Below, piece after piece: positions 20,927-27,999 of a stretch of DNA of 64,000 nt (position 1 is the stretch's first letter; each line of letters begins with the position of its first letter). The position numbers and the translations under genes were made by a program. The notes under the pieces were generated by a model that worked only from the letters and a program-made list of their open reading frames with translations, had not been told where the DNA came from and ran no database searches. The DNA is taken from the NCBI GenBank assembly GCA_947085635.1, contig CAMTXC010000006.1, positions 11,564-75,563 of the forward strand, in the 5' to 3' direction. The stretch comes from an uncultured Actinomycetes bacterium. Lineage in GTDB: Bacteria > Actinomycetota > Thermoleophilia > RBG-16-64-13.

Positions 20927-21063
20927 ACACCCCCAAGCGGGTTTGTCTTGGCGTCTCCCGGGTACGAACAGCCCGGTCGGCGGCCCGGCGATGCGGTCGT
21001 CATCACTCGATCTGATAGGAGGCGGAAATAGGGTCTGAATCGGATCAGACGACGCGCTGGGCT

Positions 21064-21747
21064 TTGGTGGTAGACCTCGATGTCTGCACGGGCTGTCAGG
21101 CCTGCATGGTGGCCTGCCTTGCCGAGAACAATGTGGGGATCGTGGGCGAGGAAGAGGCGGCCATGGGCCGCGCCCAGCATTGGATCCGTATCGAGCGCTA
21201 CTGGGACGAAGGCGAGTATCCCGAGGCCCGTGCTCAGTTCGTCCCGGTGATGTGTCAGCAATGCGGCAACGCCCCCTGTGAACCGGTGTGCCCGGTCTTT
21301 GCTTCGGTGCACTCCGAGGACGGCCTGAACAGCCAGGTGTACAACCGTTGTATCGGCACCCGTTATTGCGCTCACAACTGCCCCTACAAGGCGAGGGTCT
21401 TCAACTTCTTCGCTCCCCAGTTCCCCTCTCCGCTCGAACAGCAACTGAACCCCGACGTCACGGTGCGCAGCGTGGGCATCATGGAGAAGTGCACGTTCTG
21501 CGTGCAACGGATCAGGCGGGTGCGCGAACAGGCGAGGGTCGAGGACCGGCCCATCGCCGACGGCGAGATCATGCCGGCGTGCGTGCAAACCTGTCCGCCT
21601 GGAGCACTGGTGTTCGGGGATGCCGGAGACCCCGATTCACAAGTGTCGCGCCTGATGGCGAGTCGTCGAGGCATCCGCCTGCTCGAGGCGTTCAACACCG
21701 AGCCGTCGGTGGTCTACCTGAAGCGAGAGGGCGGCTTGGATGTCTGA
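21064..21747 (+). CDS. 4Fe-4S cluster subunit of a molybdopterin-oxidoreductase/ACIII-like complex (ActB2/PsrB-like)
   Basis: Four Cys cluster motifs (CTGCQACMVAC, CQQCGNAPCEPVCP, CIGTRYCAHNCP, CTFC...CVQTCP). The true start is uncertain; see the ATA-start finding. Confidence 0.85.
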   Translation: MVVDLDVCTGCQACMVACLAENNVGIVGEEEAAMGRAQHWIRIERYWDEGEYPEARAQFVPVMCQQCGNAPCEPVCPVFASVHSEDGLNSQVYNRCIGTRYCAHNCPYKARVFNFFAPQFPSPLEQQLNPDVTVRSVGIMEKCTFCVQRIRRVREQARVEDRPIADGEIMPACVQTCPPGALVFGDAGDPDSQVSRLMASRRGIRLLEAFNTEPSVVYLKREGGLDV

Positions 21748-23314
21748 ACGGGGTGGACCGGGGGTGAAGGGAAAGGGCGACGGACCCGAGTCGACGGGAA
21801 CCGGCTCGACCCCGGAAAAGGCCGCGCTGGCCTTCGAGGCGGCCGGGGTCAAGACCATGCCGGCCCTCACCGAGGACGACCTGCGCGCTCTCGATCGAGA
21901 TCTCGACGCACGCGTCTTCGGCGCCATGCAGAGCATCAGCATCCGCTACCTGCTGCTCGTGGGGTTCTTGGGGTCGGTGGTGGCCTTCGGCGCGTTCGCT
22001 TTCGGTTGGCAGATCTACAAGGGCATCGGGGTCGCGGGCATCAACCGCCCGGTCTTCTGGGGCTTCTACATCGCGAGTTTCGTGTTCTGGATCGGCATCA
22101 GCCACGCGGGCACGCTCGTGTCGGCCATCCTGCGGGTGCTGAAGGTCGAATGGCGCATGCCGCTCACCAGGGCGGCGGAGGCCATGACGCTCTTCGCTCT
22201 CATGATCGGCGGGCTGTTCCCGATCATCCACCTGGGTCGGAACTGGCGTTTCTACTGGATGATCCCCGTGCCGAACGAGCGCGGCCTCTGGCCGAACTTC
22301 CGGTCGGCGTTGATGTGGGACCTGCTCGCGATCCTCACCTACATCACGGCGAGTTCCCTCTTCCTCCTGCTCCCGCTGATACCCGATCTGGCCACAGCGC
22401 GCGATCGCACGCGGGGCCTTCGACGCCGCATCTACGGCCTCCTGTCGTTCGGCTGGCGTGGCACGCAACAACAGTGGCATCGTCTGCACGTGGCGATGCG
22501 GGTGTTCACCATCGTGGTCATACCGATCGCAGTGAGCGTGCACACCATCGTCTCGTGGGATTTCGGCATGACGCTTGTGGAGGGGTGGCGCAGCACGGTG
22601 TTCGGCCCCTACTTCGTCATCGGCGCCATCTATTCGGGGATGGCCGCCCTTGTGACCGTGCTGGTGCTCGTGCGCCGTTCGCTCCAACTCGAAGACTACG
22701 TGACGCTGCGGCACTTCGACCGCTTGGGGAAGGTGCTGCTCGCGGTGTCGGTGATCTGGTTCTACATGTTCTGGGCGGGGTTCCTCACCGACTGGTACGG
22801 CGGGAGCACCGTGGCGAAGTTGATCCAGCACGAACACCTGGTGGGCCATTCCGCCGTGCTCTTCTGGACGATGATGGTGGTTAACGTGCTCGTCCCCTTC
22901 CTCTTTCTGTGGTTCCGCAGGGTGCGCACATCGATGACCGCCATGCTGGTCATCAGCCTACTGGTGAACGTGGGCATGTGGATCGAGCGCTTCCTCATCG
23001 TCACGTCACCCGGGATCAACTCGCTCTCGTACAATTGGGGTTCTTACACTCCCCAATGGCCCGAGATCGCCATAGCCACGGCGACCTTCGCCGCCTTCGC
23101 GCTGCTCTACGTCTTGTTCTCGAAGGCGCTGCCGCTGATCTCCCTCTGGGAGGTCAAGGAGGGCTGGCGGGTCGACCGGTGGCGTCGTGAAGGCCTCGTC
23201 GAAGCCGAGAGCGACGTACCGTCCCTCACAACGGGCGCGACGGCGGTGACGGGCGCGACTGCGACTGCGACGACCGCGGCCGCGACTGCCGGCAGCCGAG
23301 GAGGCGCAACGTGA
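21740..23314 (+). CDS. NrfD/PsrC-family quinone-interacting membrane subunit (ActC-like)
   Basis: About 10 TM helices, NrfD-like motifs, start overlaps the upstream stop. Confidence 0.85.
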   Translation: MSERGGPGVKGKGDGPESTGTGSTPEKAALAFEAAGVKTMPALTEDDLRALDRDLDARVFGAMQSISIRYLLLVGFLGSVVAFGAFAFGWQIYKGIGVAGINRPVFWGFYIASFVFWIGISHAGTLVSAILRVLKVEWRMPLTRAAEAMTLFALMIGGLFPIIHLGRNWRFYWMIPVPNERGLWPNFRSALMWDLLAILTYITASSLFLLLPLIPDLATARDRTRGLRRRIYGLLSFGWRGTQQQWHRLHVAMRVFTIVVIPIAVSVHTIVSWDFGMTLVEGWRSTVFGPYFVIGAIYSGMAALVTVLVLVRRSLQLEDYVTLRHFDRLGKVLLAVSVIWFYMFWAGFLTDWYGGSTVAKLIQHEHLVGHSAVLFWTMMVVNVLVPFLFLWFRRVRTSMTAMLVISLLVNVGMWIERFLIVTSPGINSLSYNWGSYTPQWPEIAIATATFAAFALLYVLFSKALPLISLWEVKEGWRVDRWRREGLVEAESDVPSLTTGATAVTGATATATTAAATAGSRGGAT

Positions 23315-23832
23315 GAGGGAACGGGTTCGTCTCTGCGCGGGTCGATGGGGAGCGCGGCGTGGCCTCCGCGCTGAAGGCCCTGCGCGAAGCGGGAGTACCG
23401 CGCGAACGCATCGAGGTGCTCTCCGACCTGCCCCTGCCCGAGAGCGTGCTCGGCGGCCGGATGCGCGCCACGAAGGTGCCGTGGTGGACCGCCACAGGCC
23501 TCGTCATCGGCCTGCTCACGGGTGTGTTCTTCTCGATTGGCACCCTGTTCCTGTACCCCCTGCTCGTGGGCGGCGAGGCTTCGCGCGTCGCGCCGCCGAA
23601 CTTCATCATCATCTACGAGCTCACCATGCTCGGCATCGTCGTGGCCACCGCGCTCGGGTTCTTCCTCGAGACGCGCGGGCGGGGCCCGCGCCGGCCTTAC
23701 TTCGAGGGAGTGAGCGTGGGCGAGATCTTCGTGGTGGTTGATATGCCGCCCGACCTCGTCCCCTCACGCGTGCGGTCGGTTCTCGAGTCGCATGGCGCGG
23801 AACCCCTGCCCGACCAGAGTGAGACTACATGA
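23311..23832 (+). CDS. DUF3341/ActD-like membrane subunit
   Basis: Soluble N-terminal domain followed by two TM helices. GTGA overlap upstream and ATGA overlap downstream. Family assignment by resemblance and gene context. Confidence 0.6.
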   Translation: MRGNGFVSARVDGERGVASALKALREAGVPRERIEVLSDLPLPESVLGGRMRATKVPWWTATGLVIGLLTGVFFSIGTLFLYPLLVGGEASRVAPPNFIIIYELTMLGIVVATALGFFLETRGRGPRRPYFEGVSVGEIFVVVDMPPDLVPSRVRSVLESHGAEPLPDQSETT

Positions 23833-25607
23833 GCGACGAGACCACGCGCACCGAGACATCTGCGGCACCCGATGCCGGAGTGCATGAGGCGGGTGTGTCC
23901 CACGCGCCGCCCGACGCCGGCGTGCCCGAGCGCGCGGGTGTGCCGGGCCAGGAAGCCGGCGCCGCCTCGCGGCGGCAGCGCCGCATCCTGATCGGTCTGC
24001 TCGCTGTCGTCGTCTTAGCGGTGCTGGTCGTGCTGGTGGCCCAGCTGTTCACCGGGTGCTGGGTCGACGTGGGGAACGAGATGGGCCGGCAACCGAATGT
24101 CGGCTATGTGGAACCTCCGCGCGGGTCGGCTCCCGACGAAGCTGTGCCCTTCCAGGGGCCCGACGTCATGCCCGGCCTCGGGTCTCCCGCCAACCCAGTC
24201 ACGCGCACCGCTGAGTCGGTCGAGCGCGGCGGCCGCAGCTACGGCACCTTCTGTCTGCCGTGCCACGGCGAGGTCGCCCCGGGCGGGCAGCCGGGCATGG
24301 TGGGCATGCTCTTCGCCCCGCCTGTGCCGAACCTCGCCGATCGCATCGACTCGCTGATCGACGGCGACGTGTTCCTCGCGGTGACCAAGGGCTTCGGGCG
24401 CATGCCCGCGCTCGCATCAAGGTTGTCGGTGGAGGAGCGCTGGCACCTGGTCAACTACCTGGGTGCTCAGGGTGACGGCGGGCCCGCGCCCGCCGGGGAC
24501 TCCGCCATCCTCCGCGGCGCCCACCTGTTCGGCGTGCAGTGTGCGTCGTGTCACGGGCCCTCCGGTCAGGGGGCCTTGGGCTCGTCTCTCCACCCGTCGA
24601 GTCTGATGGCCGAGGCCTCGCTCGACGAGATCAAGTCTCTACTCCGGGCGGGTCGCCCCGGTCTCGGCATGCCCTCGTTCGGAGGCCGCCTTTCCGAGCA
24701 AGACCTCGACGACCTGGCTGTGTTGTTGAAGCAACTCCAAGCGCAGGGGCCGTCGGCGCTCGAGGATCCCACCAGTCGGCTTCGGGAGACCACGACCACA
24801 GTCCCGGACACCACCGTCACCACGGGTACCGGAAGGACCGGCACCACACTCCCCGCGACCACCACTACCACGGTCCCGGGCACTACCACGACCACCTCGG
24901 GCGGCGGGGTGGCGGCGAGGGCGCTGGGGCAGAAGGTCTACACCGCCAACTGCCTAGGCTGCCACGGGGTCGACGGGTCGGGTGGTCTTGGCCCACGTTT
25001 GAAGCCGAGCCCATTCGTCGCCGGCTCCAGTGACGACGTGGTACGTGGGGTCATCGAGAACGGTGTGGCGGGAACGGCGATGCCCAATTGGGGCGGGCGC
25101 CTGTCGGCCGACGAGATCTCCGCGCTGGTCGACCTCCTGCGCATCTGGCAGGAGCCTTCGCCGTCGGGGGCCACCGCCACAGGCGGGCCCCCCGAGACCG
25201 TCCCCTTCTCGCACAAGGCGCACGTGGCAAAGGGCGTCACCTGTCTATTCTGCCACAGCTCGGCTGCGCGTGGCCCGGCCGCCGACCTGCCGGCCCTCGA
25301 GTTGTGTGTGGGGTGCCATCGATGGATATCCACACAGACGCCCGACACCCAGGCGGTGCTCGACGCCTTCGACGAAGGCAGGGTCGTGTCGTGGGCGCGG
25401 GTCTACAACCTGCCCGATTTCGTGTTCTTCAGCCATCAGCCTCACGTGGTCGTGGCCAAGGTCGACTGTGCCACGTGCCATGGCGACGTGGGTTCCATGA
25501 CGCTCGCTAAGCGGGCCGTGCGCCACACCATGGGCTTCTGTCTCGGGTGTCACAAGCAGCAGGCCGACAATCAGCGGCTGATCGACTGCCAGATCTGCCA
25601 CAAGTAG
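23829..25607 (+). CDS. Membrane-anchored octaheme cytochrome c: three class-I-like domains plus a pentaheme ActA-like module
   Basis: Eight CxxCH motifs: CLPCH, CASCH, CLGCH, CLFCH, CVGCH, CATCH, CLGCH, CQICH. N-terminal TM helix and a Thr-rich linker. Confidence 0.85.
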   Translation: MSDETTRTETSAAPDAGVHEAGVSHAPPDAGVPERAGVPGQEAGAASRRQRRILIGLLAVVVLAVLVVLVAQLFTGCWVDVGNEMGRQPNVGYVEPPRGSAPDEAVPFQGPDVMPGLGSPANPVTRTAESVERGGRSYGTFCLPCHGEVAPGGQPGMVGMLFAPPVPNLADRIDSLIDGDVFLAVTKGFGRMPALASRLSVEERWHLVNYLGAQGDGGPAPAGDSAILRGAHLFGVQCASCHGPSGQGALGSSLHPSSLMAEASLDEIKSLLRAGRPGLGMPSFGGRLSEQDLDDLAVLLKQLQAQGPSALEDPTSRLRETTTTVPDTTVTTGTGRTGTTLPATTTTTVPGTTTTTSGGGVAARALGQKVYTANCLGCHGVDGSGGLGPRLKPSPFVAGSSDDVVRGVIENGVAGTAMPNWGGRLSADEISALVDLLRIWQEPSPSGATATGGPPETVPFSHKAHVAKGVTCLFCHSSAARGPAADLPALELCVGCHRWISTQTPDTQAVLDAFDEGRVVSWARVYNLPDFVFFSHQPHVVVAKVDCATCHGDVGSMTLAKRAVRHTMGFCLGCHKQQADNQRLIDCQICHK

Positions 25608-25629
25608 GCGAAGAGACGAGGGAGACGGC

Positions 25630-27891
25630 GTGTTCACGGAGATGAGCAGAAGGGATTTTTTCAAGAAGGCGGGCGTGCTCTCCGCTGCCCTGGCCCTGAG
25701 CGGCTGCGGGGGCGACCGCGCCGAAGAGAGGTTGGTGCCGTTCCTTCGGTCTCCGGAGGAAGAGCTGGCCGGCGTCTTCACGCACTACGCCAGCCTGTGT
25801 CGGCAGTGCCCCGCGGGGTGCGGCATCCTGGTGACCACCATGGGAGGCCGCGCCCACAAGCTCGAAGGCAACCCCCGTCACCCGCTGAACCAAGGAAAGC
25901 TCTGTGCGCGCGGGCAGGCCGGGCTGCAGGCCCTCTACAATCCCGATCGCCTTGTCGGTCCACAGGGGCGCGCGGGCTCAGCCGACGGGTTCCAGTCGAT
26001 CACCTGGGACGCCGGGCTCGGGCGCCTGACCAAGGCGCTGAAGGCGGCGGCGTCCCGTCCGGGGTCCGGGGCGGTACGGGCGTACGGTGGCCGGCTTCCC
26101 GACCACACGTACGGTGTGGCGGCGCGTCTTCTTGCCGGGCTCGAGGGCGGCGCCCCGGATACCGATCCTGCGGAGAGCGGCACCCGGCCGCTGGTGTGGG
26201 ATCTACACCGGGCGCTCGACGGAGTGGGACTTCTCGACTCCATCACCCGCGAGATGTACGGCTCGCAGGCCGAGGGTCTGCCGTTCTTCGATCTCGCCTC
26301 CGCCGAGGTCGCGATCTCGTTCTCGGCCGACCTCTTCGGCACGTGGCTCTCTCCGGTGTACTACGGCAGGGCGTATGGCGAGATGCGGCGTGGCCGCGGA
26401 GTTACCCGCGGGTACCTTGCGCAGGTGGAGCCACGACTCTCGGCCACAGGTGTCAGCGCTGACGAATGGTTGGCGGTCGCGGCCGGGCGCGAGGCGTATG
26501 TGGCGCTCTGCCTGGGACGGGTGATCCTCGACGAAGGGCTCGCGGCCGGCCCGCGGCCCGCGGGTGTGGATGCGGTGTTCCAGGGTGTGGACGCTCGTGG
26601 CCTCGCCGCCGGCCTCGGGCTCTCCTTCGAGAGGCTTGTGCGTCTCGCCCGTATCTTCGGGAGCTCGCGGGCTCCTCTGGCGATCCCCGGCGGCGGCCTC
26701 GGGGCGGCCCGGAACGGCGCCGACGCCGTGCGCACCGTCATGGCGCTCAACCTACTGGTGGGGGCGCACGAGAGCACCCTCGGCGCGTCGTCGGCCAAGC
26801 CCGCCGACACGATCCTCGCTACCGAGACGGTCTCTTCGTTCGCCGAGGTGCGCCGGGCGATCGAGGACATGCGGTCGGGCTCTGTCGACGTGTTCCTGGT
26901 TCTCGACGGAGATCCCGTGCACGACCTCCCCTCTTCGCTGGGGTTCTCGGAGGCAGCCGCCAACGTGGGTCTGATCGTTGACTTCTCGCCGTTTCCCACC
27001 GACACCGGCGAGGCACTGGCGCATCTCCGTCTCCCCGCACCCACGTACCTCGAGACCTGGGGTTACCACGTGCCTCAGCCCGGGGCTGGGTTGGCCATCG
27101 TGGGCGCCCAACAGCCGGTGGTGCGGCAACTGCACGACACCCGCTCACCCGTGGACGTGCTCCTCGCGGCCGCCAAGGGCGTGGGCGGCCGTGTCGCCGA
27201 GGCGCTCCCGTGGGAGAACGAGGTGGCGTGCCTGAAGGACGTCGTGGACGGCCTACGCGAACGGACCGACGCCTCCATAACCTCTGGGGACCCCGAAGTC
27301 TTCTGGGTGCGCTGGCAACAGTACGGCGGTTGGTGGGCCACGCAGCCCGACGCGGACCCTCCGACCCCGCGGGCGGTGAGGCCGGGATTGGCCACGTCCG
27401 CGGCCGCGAACGTGGCGGACCCCGTCGAGGACGGGAGTGCGTTTCTGTTGCGGCCGTACGTGTCGCTCACGCTCGGTGACGGTCGTCACGCGAACCAACC
27501 TTGGCTGCATGAGACGCCCGACCCCATGACCTCGGTGATGTGGGACACCTGGGTCGAGATCGCTCCTTCCTCGGCCGCGCGACTGGGTGTCTCTACAGGC
27601 GACATGGTCAAGGTGACATCGTCGGTGGGGTCGGTCGAGGCGCCCGTCTACGTGTACCGGGGCATCGGCCCCGATGTCGTCGCGATGCCCCTGGGCGGGG
27701 GTCACCGTGCATACGGCCGCTACGCGGCGGGGCGCGGGGCGAGCGTGGGCGATCTCATCGAGCCGGTGGCCGGCGCCGAAGGTGAGCTGGCTTGGGGCGC
27801 GACTCGCGTGACCCTCGAGCCTACCGGTGAGTCGAAAGCCCTGGCTACTCTCGAAGGCTCCGAGTCGACGGTGGTTCCGGAAGGCCTGTAA
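25630..27891 (+). CDS. Tat-exported molybdopterin-oxidoreductase family subunit (ActB1/PsrA-like)
   Basis: SRRDFFKKAG twin-arginine signal. N-terminal CRQCPAGC...C FeS motif. GTG start lies 5 nt after GAGGGAG. Confidence 0.85.
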   Translation: MFTEMSRRDFFKKAGVLSAALALSGCGGDRAEERLVPFLRSPEEELAGVFTHYASLCRQCPAGCGILVTTMGGRAHKLEGNPRHPLNQGKLCARGQAGLQALYNPDRLVGPQGRAGSADGFQSITWDAGLGRLTKALKAAASRPGSGAVRAYGGRLPDHTYGVAARLLAGLEGGAPDTDPAESGTRPLVWDLHRALDGVGLLDSITREMYGSQAEGLPFFDLASAEVAISFSADLFGTWLSPVYYGRAYGEMRRGRGVTRGYLAQVEPRLSATGVSADEWLAVAAGREAYVALCLGRVILDEGLAAGPRPAGVDAVFQGVDARGLAAGLGLSFERLVRLARIFGSSRAPLAIPGGGLGAARNGADAVRTVMALNLLVGAHESTLGASSAKPADTILATETVSSFAEVRRAIEDMRSGSVDVFLVLDGDPVHDLPSSLGFSEAAANVGLIVDFSPFPTDTGEALAHLRLPAPTYLETWGYHVPQPGAGLAIVGAQQPVVRQLHDTRSPVDVLLAAAKGVGGRVAEALPWENEVACLKDVVDGLRERTDASITSGDPEVFWVRWQQYGGWWATQPDADPPTPRAVRPGLATSAAANVADPVEDGSAFLLRPYVSLTLGDGRHANQPWLHETPDPMTSVMWDTWVEIAPSSAARLGVSTGDMVKVTSSVGSVEAPVYVYRGIGPDVVAMPLGGGHRAYGRYAAGRGASVGDLIEPVAGAEGELAWGATRVTLEPTGESKALATLEGSESTVVPEGL

Positions 27892-27938: not shown

Positions 27939-27970
27939 GGCGGGCGCGCCCGGGTTCGGTCGCGCCCGCC
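27939..27970. terminator. 10-bp perfect GC hairpin between convergent genes
   Basis: GGCGGGCGCG, 12-nt loop, CGCGCCCGCC. No obvious T-tract. Confidence 0.45.
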
Positions 27971-27999
27971 GCCACAAAGGCATCTGCCCCTATCTGCCC

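What the first reader, a model, noticed from the sequence alone, without database searches (positions are those of the whole stretch)
21017..27891. Rearranged alternative-complex-III-like cluster with split ActB and an octaheme ActE/ActA fusion
The five translationally coupled genes encode an FeS subunit, an NrfD-type membrane subunit, a DUF3341/ActD-like protein, a 592-aa cytochrome with eight CxxCH motifs, and a Tat-signal molybdopterin-family subunit. The cytochrome has a TM anchor, three class-I-like domains and a C-terminal pentaheme module that resembles ActA. Canonical ACIII is ActA, a fused B1-B2 ActB, then C, D, E and F. Here B2 and B1 are separate and lie at opposite ends, the monoheme and pentaheme cytochromes are fused, and a second NrfD (ActF) is absent. 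The Mo-family subunit keeps an N-terminal CxxCxxxC...C FeS motif, so it could be a catalytic Mo enzyme, unlike the cofactor-less ActB1.
Basis: partly seen in the sequence, partly recalled or inferred. Interest (0 to 1): 0.6.

Follow-up and report, generated by a model that had tools for sequence, protein, structure and literature searches.

The report
Rotated, fused alternative complex III operon
These five genes encode an ordinary respiratory enzyme, alternative complex III, in an uncultured actinobacterium; its genes are in rotated order and its cytochromes are fused into one protein, and its molybdoenzyme-like subunit is most likely a molybdenum-free scaffold.

Summary
Window 21017-27891 (+) holds five tightly packed genes, and each maps onto a subunit of alternative complex III (ACIII):
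- An FeS protein, which is ActB2.
- A 10-helix NrfD protein, which is ActC (342 bits to solved ActC).
- ActD, with its conserved membrane Glu.
- A 592-aa, eight-haem cytochrome made of a TM anchor, an ActE domain, two extra class-I domains and an ActA pentahaem domain.
- A Tat-exported molybdoenzyme-like protein, which is ActB1.

In the ACIII clusters I collected from many phyla, ActB is split in about half and ActF is often missing. The CX2CX3CX27C cluster motif in ActB1 was present in nearly all of the 80 closest relatives I recovered. The split ActB and the motif are already published.

What is lineage-specific is the rotation of the operon (A-B1 moved behind E) and the fusion of ActE, two cytochrome domains and ActA. 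I found these only in a few Thermoleophilia. Their subunits are closest to those of Anaerolineales.

The Mo-ligand cysteine of ArrA/PsrA aligns to a conserved alanine, and the subunit nests inside the ActB1 clade. A catalytic molybdenum site is therefore unlikely, though not excluded.

The scan reported the same architecture earlier in another actinobacterial genome (e1-709543).

The parts
21017..21022 (+). AGGAGG ribosome-binding site ahead of the ActB2 gene
   Evidence: Read directly from the sequence. An in-frame ATA follows at 21028.
21028..21747 (+). ActB2, the FeS subunit. The first canonical start is TTG 21064, but the true start is probably upstream.
   Evidence: It scores 269 bits to R. 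marinus ActB residues 795-1024 and 246 bits to R. castenholzii ActB 680-919, against 95 for ArrB and 91 for PsrB. The motif RCIGTRYCAHNCPYK has three Cys, like the [3Fe-4S] site of ActB. Three further four-Cys motifs are present. Homology to ActB (R-W-A) extends upstream of the TTG.
21740..23314 (+). ActC, the quinol-binding NrfD-type membrane subunit with about 10 TM helices
   Evidence: It scores 342, 337, 314 and 313 bits to the ActC chains of four solved ACIIIs, and only 22-39 bits to ActF. Ten hydrophobic segments are seen. The S-V-H motif aligned with Ser244/His246 of R. castenholzii ActC is kept (PMC7439408).
23311..23832 (+). ActD, a two-TM subunit with cytoplasmic ends
   Evidence: Pfam PF11821 gives 70.6 bits. 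Glu103 in the second TM segment is conserved in at least 85% of 39 ActD homologues. This corresponds to the conserved Glu122 of R. marinus ActD (PMC5928083). It is the only ActD in the assembly.
23829..25607 (+). Octahaem fusion cytochrome: TM anchor, ActE domain, two class-I domains, ActA pentahaem domain
   Evidence: There are eight CxxCH motifs. The top PDB hits are ActA chains (87-100 bits, residues 456-578), followed by R. marinus ActE (46.9 bits, residues 96-224).
23973..24077 (+). N-terminal signal-anchor helix of the cytochrome (residues 49-83)
   Evidence: Hydropathy scan.
24174..24482 (+). D1, the ActE-like monohaem domain (residues 116-218, haem motif at C142)
   Evidence: It scores 51-60 bits to the ActE genes of Anaerolineales clusters and 40-51 bits to those of Gammaproteobacteria and Acidobacteria. 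PDB ActE hits support this.
24483..25169 (+). D2 and D3, two extra class-I cytochrome c domains joined by a Thr/Pro-rich linker (residues 313-360)
   Evidence: D2 and D3 match each other's counterparts in relatives at 43-52 bits but match ActE at only 15-22 bits. The nearest PDB hits are actinobacterial QcrC, CcoP and c6 at 20-33 bits.
25170..25604 (+). A5, the ActA-type pentahaem domain without its own TM helix (residues 448-592)
   Evidence: It scores 103-150 bits to stand-alone ActA genes at the head of canonical clusters and 87-100 bits to solved ActA.
25630..27891 (+). ActB1, a Tat-exported molybdoenzyme-fold subunit that is probably a lipoprotein
   Evidence: phmmer aligns residues 31-703 to R. 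castenholzii ActB 8-601. NCBIfam gives QrcB 210 bits against PhsA 118 and ArrA 110. In the tree it lies inside the ACIII B1 clade. The AF2 model has pLDDT 86 and its fold matches ArrA (TM 0.77) and ActB (TM 0.73).
25798..25905 (+). FS0 [4Fe-4S] motif C57-x2-C60-x3-C64-x27-C92 in ActB1
   Evidence: All four Cys are invariant in 115 of 115 close homologues. They are present in 78 of the 83 related ACIII B1 sequences compared.
26212..26214 (+). Ala195 codon, the position aligned with the Mo-ligand cysteine of ArrA
   Evidence: The profile alignment places ArrA Cys (chain index 153) on this column. It is Ala in 102 of 115 homologues. The ArrA and PsrA ligand positions were checked.
27941..27971 (.). 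GC-rich hairpin between the convergent ActB1 and UPF0182 genes, a possible terminator
   Evidence: Read from the sequence. The consensus terminator scan did not call it because it has no T tract.

Best explanation
The locus encodes an alternative complex III (ACIII), a menaquinol:cytochrome c oxidoreductase of the split-ActB, ActF-less subtype.

Inferred mechanism, by homology to solved ACIIIs:
1. Menaquinol is oxidised at the outer-face site of ActC.
2. Electrons pass to the three-Cys ([3Fe-4S]) cluster of ActB2.
3. They then run through the five haems of the ActA domain to the ActE-type haem.
4. From there they reach the two extra membrane-tethered class-I haem domains, which hand them to a terminal acceptor.
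5. ActC together with ActD (Glu103) couples this to proton movement.

ActB1 carries the Tat signal, and probably a lipid anchor, that takes the signal-less ActB2 across the membrane. It keeps one [4Fe-4S] cluster (FS0) but most likely has no molybdenum.

Inferred history: the cluster shares ancestry with Anaerolineales-type ACIII. Its order is a rotation of A-B1-B2-C-D-E-(c) to B2-C-D-E-c-c-A-B1, followed by fusion of E, the two c domains and A into one gene.

The subunit identities, domain map, motif states and gene order are shown here. The electron path, the proton coupling, the acceptor and the absence of Mo are inferred.
For: Each subunit finds its ACIII counterpart as best solved relative:
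- ActC: 342 bits.
- ActB2: 269 bits, with the RCIGTRYC.xNCPYK three-Cys motif.
- ActA: 87-100 bits; ActE: 47 bits.
- ActB1: full-length alignment to R. castenholzii ActB.
- ActD: PF11821 with its conserved TM Glu.

The Qrc equivalog models are all far below cut-off, with QrcD at 25 against 570.

Eighty related loci show the canonical order A-B(1,2)-C-D-E-(F). Only the Thermoleophilia loci (window, L002, L003, L005) show B2-C-D-fusion-B1.

All five subunits are most similar to Anaerolineales. The B1 tree places the Thermoleophilia clade (100) as sister (98) to Anaerolineales, inside ACIII.

The hydrogenase 8 kb downstream has its own cytochrome b, so H2 feeds the quinone pool directly.

Relatives carrying the same operon (G001, G012, G036) have caa3-type oxidases, in which CuA subunit II carries one CxxCH. 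Family members without ActD have none.
Against: No haem-copper oxidase, cytochrome b or convincing bd oxidase was found in this 75%-complete assembly, so the acceptor here is unknown.

The genome is rich in giant multihaem cytochromes, which leaves room for a non-oxygen role or even reverse operation.

NCBIfam's best-named hits are Qrc subunits.

No biochemical data exist for any FS0-bearing ACIII that I could find, so 'Mo-free' is an extrapolation from FS0-less enzymes.
Confidence: 0.8

Rival explanations
1. ActB1 is a working Mo/W-bisPGD enzyme acting on an unknown periplasmic substrate. The FeS wire FS1-FS4-FS0 would feed its active site, making the complex a quinol:substrate oxidoreductase with an added cytochrome branch.
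For: - The FS0 cysteines are invariant in 115 of 115 homologues, and Arg94 after the fourth Cys is nearly invariant.
- The family profile scores ArrA highest in the PDB (226 bits against 193-214 for ActB).
- The model superposes on ArrA as well as on ActB (TM 0.77 against 0.73).
- Arsenite oxidase binds Mo with an Ala at the ligand position (my knowledge, not tested here).
- The ACIII literature calls the three [4Fe-4S] clusters a dead end of unknown purpose (PMC7439408).
Against: - The ligand Cys of ArrA/PsrA aligns with a conserved Ala, and the neighbouring residues are not conserved as Ser, Asp or Cys.
- The middle of the protein (residues about 315-379) does not align with ArrA.
- The subunit lies inside the ActB1 clade, which includes a solved cofactor-free ActB.
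- Most invariant motifs outside FS0 (EGNPxHP, Y[ND]PDR, LE[SA]WG, AN.[PA]W[LA]QE) are shared with cofactor-free ActB1.
- Scores are the reverse of those for the genome's true Psr-like enzymes.
Confidence: 0.08
2. The complex runs in the Qrc direction. It would take electrons from periplasmic or extracellular cytochromes and reduce menaquinone, serving anaerobic metabolism.
For: - The best NCBIfam names are QrcC (248 bits), QrcB (210) and QrcA (67).
- The assembly shows no oxygen reductase.
- It encodes many large multihaem cytochromes.
Against: - All Qrc scores are below the equivalog cut-offs, and QrcD scores only 25 bits against 342 for ActC.
- ActD is present here; it is absent from the four listed Qrc subunits and described as exclusive to ACIII (PMC8076601, PMC5928083).
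- The hydrogenase has its own cytochrome b.
- Close relatives with the same operon carry caa3 oxidases.
- The added domains are class-I cytochromes, like those that serve oxidases.
Confidence: 0.07
3. In this particular genome the ACIII is the quinol dehydrogenase for an extracellular or metal-reducing multihaem cytochrome chain, not for an oxidase.
For: - Haem-copper oxidase, cytochrome b and bd oxidase are all missing from a 75%-complete assembly.
- The genome has 33-, 15- and 12-haem proteins.
- ACIII-like clusters have been linked to iron metabolism in other phyla (PMC9386147, PMC4643136).
Against: - The assembly is incomplete.
- The multihaem genes are not near the ACIII operon.
- An NrfH/CymA-like seven-haem protein that could serve that role exists elsewhere.
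- This is a variant of the main explanation (same enzyme, different acceptor), not a true rival.
Confidence: 0.25

Closest known systems
Alternative complex III, ActABCDEF, of Rhodothermus marinus (6F0K), Roseiflexus castenholzii (6LOD), Chloroflexus aurantiacus (8K9E) and Flavobacterium johnsoniae (6BTM)
   Same: ActA, B1, B2, C, D and E are all recognisable, with ACIII chains as the best or near-best solved relatives. ActC has 10 TM helices, ActB2 has the three-Cys cluster motif, and ActD has its TM glutamate.
   Different: - ActB is two genes.
- There is no ActF.
- The gene order is rotated.
- ActE, two extra haem domains and ActA form one polypeptide with a single N-terminal anchor.
- B1 keeps the FS0 cysteines that the solved enzymes lack.
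Split-ActB ACIII clusters of Anaerolineales and other Chloroflexota MAGs (for example L004, L025-L027)
   Same: They are the closest homologues of all five proteins (B2 67-69%, ActC 49-53%, B1 43-46%, ActA domain 43-47% identity). B1 and B2 are separate, FS0 is present, there is no ActF, and extra class-I cytochromes follow ActE. They also share an insertion around the former Mo-ligand site.
   Different: They keep the canonical order A-B1-B2-C-D-E-c, with separate ActA, ActE and di- or trihaem genes.
actAB1B2CDEF of neutrophilic iron oxidisers (Ferriphaselus and relatives; PMC4643136)
   Same: actB is split, and actB1 carries the same CX2CX3CX27C [4Fe-4S] motif.
   Different: The order is canonical, ActF is present and the cytochromes are separate. 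These are Proteobacteria.
QrcABCD menaquinone reductase of Desulfovibrio
   Same: The Mo-like, FeS and NrfD subunits are separate, and there is a multihaem cytochrome. It gives the best NCBIfam names for three subunits.
   Different: All scores are below the cut-offs. Qrc has no ActD or ActE, its cytochrome has six haems, QrcB is described as cofactor-free (PMC13059093), and it works in the opposite direction.
Actinobacterial cytochrome bcc QcrC (dihaem c subunit of the bcc-aa3 supercomplex)
   Same: Membrane-tethered tandem class-I haem domains replace a soluble cytochrome c in a cell without a periplasm. There is weak similarity: NF050122 gives 49.7 bits, and PDB QcrC chains give 24-30 bits on D2.
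   Different: It belongs to an unrelated complex, the similarity is domain-level only, and the analogy of function is an inference.

Membership tests
Alternative complex III (ACIII) | ActC-type NrfD subunit with 10 TM helices and the outer-face quinol site | tested here: met
   It scores 313-342 bits to four solved ActC chains and at most 39 bits to ActF. Ten hydrophobic segments are seen. The S-V-H motif is conserved in the alignment.
Alternative complex III (ACIII) | ActD subunit (PF11821), described as exclusive to ACIII, with a conserved Glu in the second TM helix | tested here: met
   PF11821 gives 70.6 bits against a cut-off of 25.7. Glu103 is conserved in at least 85% of 39 homologues. 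phmmer found no PDB hit.
Alternative complex III (ACIII) | ActB2 FeS module with one three-Cys ([3Fe-4S]) motif and three four-Cys ([4Fe-4S]) motifs | tested here: met
   It scores 269 bits to the R. marinus ActB B2 domain, and the motif RCIGTRYCAHNCPYK aligns with RCIGTRYCSNNCPYK. The other three Cys groups can be read. Cluster types are inferred from the motifs.
Alternative complex III (ACIII) | ActB1 molybdoenzyme-fold module with a Tat signal and no Mo ligand | tested here: met
   The Tat motif SRRDFF is present. The protein aligns full-length to ActB. The ligand position is Ala195. It lies inside the ACIII B1 clade. Actual metal content could not be tested.
Alternative complex III (ACIII) | ActA pentahaem and ActE monohaem cytochromes | tested here: met
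   Both are present as domains of one protein. ActA scores 87-100 bits and ActE 27-47 bits in the PDB. Against stand-alone genes of canonical clusters they score 103-150 and 40-60 bits.
Alternative complex III (ACIII) | Second NrfD-type subunit, ActF | tested here: not met
   There is none in the cluster. The only other NrfD genes in the assembly belong to two Psr-like operons. ActF is also missing from many related clusters and is reported as variable (PMC3543383), so I do not treat it as disqualifying.
Alternative complex III (ACIII) | Gene order actA-B-C-D-E-F | tested here: not met
   The order here is B2-C-D-(E-c-c-A)-B1. All 80 non-Thermoleophilia loci begin A-B.
Alternative complex III (ACIII) | Menaquinol:cytochrome c/HiPIP oxidoreductase activity | not testable with these tools
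   This needs biochemistry.
QrcABCD menaquinone reductase | Scores above the NCBIfam equivalog cut-offs for QrcA, B, C and D | tested here: not met
   QrcA 67 against 180, QrcB 210 against 440, QrcC 248 against 400, QrcD 25.5 against 570.
Catalytic Mo/W-bisPGD CISM enzymes (Psr/Phs, Arr, Ttr) | FS0 [4Fe-4S] motif at the N-terminus | tested here: met
   C57, C60, C64 and C92 are invariant in 115 of 115 homologues.
Catalytic Mo/W-bisPGD CISM enzymes (Psr/Phs, Arr, Ttr) | Cys, Sec, Ser or Asp side chain ligating Mo at the conserved position | tested here: not met
   The ArrA ligand Cys aligns with Ala195, which is Ala in 102 of 115 homologues. The PsrA Cys173 and ArrA Cys positions were verified against the genome's own Psr-like enzyme. 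The alignment could be off by one or two residues, but no neighbouring residue is conserved as a ligand type.
Catalytic Mo/W-bisPGD CISM enzymes (Psr/Phs, Arr, Ttr) | Placement inside a characterised reductase clade | tested here: not met
   It separates with 100% support from the two Psr-like enzymes of the same genome. The PhsA (118) and ArrA (110) models are far below their cut-offs.
Catalytic Mo/W-bisPGD CISM enzymes (Psr/Phs, Arr, Ttr) | Bound Mo/W-bisPGD cofactor | not testable with these tools
   The fold alone does not discriminate: ArrA TM 0.77, ActB TM 0.73. All five genomes checked have MoaC, so gene co-occurrence does not discriminate either.

The most novel reading that the evidence does not exclude
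The strictly conserved FS0 cluster in ActB1, here and in most of the ACIII clusters I recovered, may be a working fifth FeS centre. It would give the puzzling 'dead-end' [4Fe-4S] wire of ACIII a destination. B1 would then be a second electron entry or exit site, or even a cofactor-bearing catalytic site, that the four solved FS0-less ACIIIs have lost.
Probability: 0.15. Interest if true: 0.7.

Novelty: new variant of a known kind. Interest (0 to 1): 0.3.

Why it matters
The main value is in annotation. Pipelines label these genes 'molybdopterin-dependent oxidoreductase', 'nitrate reductase' or 'c-type cytochrome' (names), which could be misread as a novel reductase. The locus is an ACIII.

The rotated order and the single-chain ActE-c-c-ActA cytochrome show two things:
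- ActA's own membrane helix is dispensable.
- A cell that probably lacks a periplasm tethers the whole haem chain to the membrane, much as actinobacterial QcrC does.

The fusion also gives a natural construct for studying how electrons leave ACIII.

The wider observation is that most ACIII B1 subunits recovered here keep a strictly conserved [4Fe-4S] site, whereas all solved ACIIIs lack it. This bears on the open question of what the 'dead-end' FeS chain in ACIII is for. The motif itself is already published.

Tried and rejected
1. I considered Qrc membership and rejected it. All four equivalog scores are below cut-off, and ActD and ActC are unambiguous.

2. I considered a Psr/Arr/Ttr-type reductase and rejected it on the score pattern, the tree and the ligand column.

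3. Fold search could not separate ArrA from ActB.

4. I looked for genomes with an FS0-type ACIII but no molybdenum-cofactor synthesis. All five checked have MoaC, so the test was uninformative.

5. The promoter and terminator consensus scan gave nothing above chance.

6. phmmer of ActD against the PDB found nothing, so ActD identity rests on Pfam and the conserved Glu.

8. Venceslau 2010 (PMC2906268) is not held, so I could not check whether QrcB has the FS0 cysteines.

9. The ActD-cytochrome fusion in L005/P0025 was not pursued, because that contig has several broken genes.

10. The FS0 frequency is biased. One of the two search patterns contained the fourth Cys, and only the 80 hits closest to the query were kept.
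Full report
**What is there**

Window 21017-27891 carries five plus-strand genes. Three junctions overlap, by 8, 4 and 4 nt. The last gene follows a 22-nt spacer that holds a GAGGGAG ribosome-binding site.

Pfam calls the five products as follows:
- A 4Fe-4S dicluster protein.
- An NrfD protein.
- An ActD (PF11821) protein.
- A cytochrome with three class-I stretches plus c7/c3-type multihaem matches.
- A Tat-signal molybdopterin-family protein with an Fe4S4 domain.

The cytochrome has eight CxxCH motifs and one N-terminal membrane anchor. Its stated start, 21017, is the AGGAGG ribosome-binding site.

**Identity of each subunit**

Comparison with solved structures is unambiguous.

- The NrfD protein scores 313-342 bits to the ActC chains of four ACIII structures and at most 39 bits to ActF. 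It has about ten hydrophobic segments.
- The FeS protein scores 269 bits to the B2 domain of R. marinus ActB (residues 795-1024), against 95 for ArrB and 91 for PsrB. It shares the three-Cys motif RCIGTRYC.xNCPYK.
- The cytochrome's best four PDB hits are ActA chains (87-100 bits, residues 456-578). The fifth is R. marinus ActE (46.9 bits, residues 96-224).
- The Mo-family protein aligns over residues 31-703 with R. castenholzii ActB residues 8-601, the B1 domain.
- ActD has Glu103 in its second TM segment, conserved in at least 85% of 39 homologues. This matches the conserved Glu122 described for R. marinus (PMC5928083).

NCBIfam's best names are Qrc subunits, but every one is far below its cut-off. 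QrcD reaches only 25 bits.

**Domain map of the fusion**

I split the cytochrome into four parts and compared them with cytochrome genes of related clusters.

- D1 (residues 116-218) is specifically ActE-like. It scores 51-60 bits to the ActE genes of Anaerolineales and 40-51 bits to those of Proteobacteria and Acidobacteria.
- D2 and D3 match ActE only weakly (15-22 bits). They resemble each other and generic class-I domains.
- The C-terminal 145 residues match stand-alone ActA at 103-150 bits.

The protein is therefore anchor, ActE, two extra c domains, then ActA without ActA's own helix. A Thr/Pro-rich linker (residues 313-360) lies between D2 and D3.

**How unusual is the layout?**

Homologues of the fused cytochrome come only from Thermoleophilia-labelled MAGs. 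Three further contigs (L002, L003, L005) share the order FeS-ActC-ActD-cytochrome-B1 and the same flanking genes.

In a sample of 81 genomes of the class, ActD and the fused cytochrome occur in the same three genomes only, all in one family.

The B1 subunit has more than a thousand homologue clusters. A scan of species-representative genomes returned 80 loci from Chloroflexota, Acidobacteriota, Gemmatimonadota, Proteobacteria, Nitrospirota, Methylomirabilota and others. A gene-order script showed the following:
- They are ordinary ACIII clusters that begin ActA-ActB.
- ActB is fused in roughly half and split into B1 plus B2 in the other half.
- ActF is missing in many, including Anaerolineales and Acidobacteria.

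Split ActB and variable ActF are also in the literature (PMC9386147 citing Refojo 2010; PMC4643136; PMC3543383).

The Thermoleophilia order is a rotation of the Anaerolineales order. A-B1-B2-C-D-E-c becomes B2-C-D-E-c-c-A-B1, with the adjacent E, c and A genes then fused. Some Anaerolineales clusters (L027, L031) have exactly ActE followed by a dihaem gene.

All five subunits are most similar to Anaerolineales. The B1 tree places the Thermoleophilia clade (support 100) as sister (98) to Anaerolineales, inside the ACIII radiation and well away from the genome's own Psr-like enzymes. Given the patchy distribution in the class, acquisition of the whole cluster from a Chloroflexota-like source is plausible but not proven.

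**The molybdoenzyme question**

The FS0 motif C57-x2-C60-x3-C64-x27-C92 is real and invariant in 115 of 115 close homologues. It is not a peculiarity of this locus. It is present in 78 of the 83 related ACIII B1 sequences I compared, fused or split. That sample is biased towards similarity to the query. Kato et al. reported the same CX2CX3CX27C motif in actB1 of iron oxidisers (PMC4643136). The solved ACIIIs and a Dehalococcoidia group lack it.

For the Mo ligand, I first verified the positions in known enzymes. PsrA Cys173 and the ArrA Cys (chain index 153) both align with a Cys of the genome's own Psr-like enzyme. A profile of 45 family members aligned to ArrA then puts that Cys on Ala195. 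This column is Ala in 102 of 115 sequences, and its neighbours are not conserved as Ser, Asp or Cys.

The central part of the protein does not align with ArrA. Most invariant motifs outside FS0 are shared with the cofactor-free solved ActB1 proteins.

Score patterns are reciprocal. This subunit gives QrcB 210 against PhsA 118. The genome's two Psr-like enzymes give PhsA 199-219 against QrcB 133.

Other evidence points less clearly:
- The family profile scores ArrA highest in the PDB (226 bits).
- The AF2 model (pLDDT 86) superposes on ArrA (TM 0.77) as well as on ActB (TM 0.73).
- Arsenite oxidase is a precedent for Mo binding without a protein ligand (my knowledge).

I therefore rate a catalytic Mo site as unlikely (about 0.08) and not excluded.

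B1 has an obvious non-catalytic role. It carries the Tat signal, here with a lipobox-like LSGC, while B2 has no signal. B1 is therefore needed to export and hold B2. This is an inference.

**Physiological setting**

The [NiFeSe] hydrogenase 8 kb downstream has its own cytochrome b. Hydrogen therefore reduces the quinone pool directly, and a Qrc-like reverse function is not needed.

In this 75%-complete assembly I found no haem-copper oxidase, no cytochrome b of bc type and no convincing bd oxidase. I did find:
- Two PsrABC-like operons.
- An NrfH-like seven-haem protein.
- Very large multihaem cytochromes, with up to 33 CxxCH motifs.

Relatives with the same operon (G001, G012, G036) do have oxidases. 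These include caa3-type enzymes whose CuA subunit II carries one CxxCH, plus cytochrome b and bd. Three family members without ActD have neither oxidase nor cytochrome b. These genomes are few and related, so this is a hint only.

The enzyme is thus most likely a menaquinol:cytochrome c oxidoreductase. In relatives it would feed a caa3 oxidase. In this genome the acceptor is open.

**Comparison and novelty**

The locus meets the ACIII criteria I could test, namely ActC, ActD, B2, B1, ActA and ActE. It fails on ActF and on gene order, and neither is universal. It is not Qrc and not a Psr/Arr/Ttr reductase.

The rotation plus the E-c-c-A fusion is a lineage-specific variant of a known complex. 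An earlier report of this scan described the same architecture in another actinobacterial genome (e1-709543), and my independent tests agree with it.

**Limits**

No metal or activity data exist. The FS0 frequency estimate is biased by the search patterns and by ranking on similarity to the query.

Noticed in passing
window 21019-21066: Homology of the FeS subunit to ActB (R-W-A before VVDLD) extends upstream of the first canonical start, TTG 21064. No ATG, GTG or TTG lies between the stop at 21016-21018 and that TTG. An ATA at 21028 sits 5 nt after a perfect AGGAGG, so a non-canonical start is likely.
   Followed up: partly
G000 contig C25 (L018, L019), also C4:9481-14568 and C9:54431-55372: The genome encodes very large multihaem cytochromes: 1349 aa with 33 CxxCH, 1695 aa with 15, 462 aa with 15, three with 12, and one with 10. 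Most are clustered on C25. One resembles DmsE/GSU2203 decahaem proteins. This suggests extracellular electron transfer in an actinobacterium.
   Followed up: partly
G000 C28:25742-30179 and C34:20219-24595 (L017, L016): There are two PsrABC-like operons, each with a Mo subunit bearing a Cys ligand, an FeS subunit and an eight-helix-size NrfD. The best NCBIfam name is thiosulfate reductase PhsA, but the scores are far below cut-off, so the substrates are unknown.
   Followed up: partly
G000 whole assembly: I found no haem-copper oxidase, no bc-type cytochrome b and no convincing bd oxidase in 75% of the genome. The three closest ACIII-bearing relatives have all three. Either this lineage has lost aerobic respiration while keeping ACIII, or the genes are unassembled.
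   Followed up: partly
window 24765-24908 (cytochrome residues 313-360): A Thr/Pro/Gly-rich low-complexity linker (TTTTVPDTTVTTGTGRTGTTLPATTTTTVPGTTTTTSGGG) lies between two haem domains. ActC also ends in a Thr/Ala-rich tail (about residues 490-524). Such linkers are candidates for O-glycosylation in actinobacteria.
   Followed up: no
tree of ActB1: The only solved ActB1 included (R. castenholzii, no FS0) sits on a branch of 3.0 changes per site, against a median of 0.34 for FS0-bearing B1 sequences. This may mean constraint relaxed after loss of the cluster, but the row was reconstructed from an alignment and long branches are unreliable.
   Followed up: no
L005:7968-9983 (protein P0025, 671 aa): In one Thermoleophilia contig, ActD appears fused in frame to the octahaem cytochrome. 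The contig has several split genes (NrfD, Lon, M50), so this may be an assembly or frameshift artefact.
   Followed up: no
L004:16759-22208 and L026 (Anaerolineales): Anaerolineales ACIII clusters are directly adjacent to a second Mo-subunit/FeS/NrfD (Psr-like) operon and to extra multi-domain class-I cytochromes. This suggests a respiratory island.
   Followed up: no
window 27941-27971: A GC-rich perfect hairpin (GGCGGGCGCG ... CGCGCCCGCC) without a T tract lies between the convergent ActB1 and UPF0182 genes. It may be a bidirectional terminator of the high-GC type, which the consensus scan misses.
   Followed up: no
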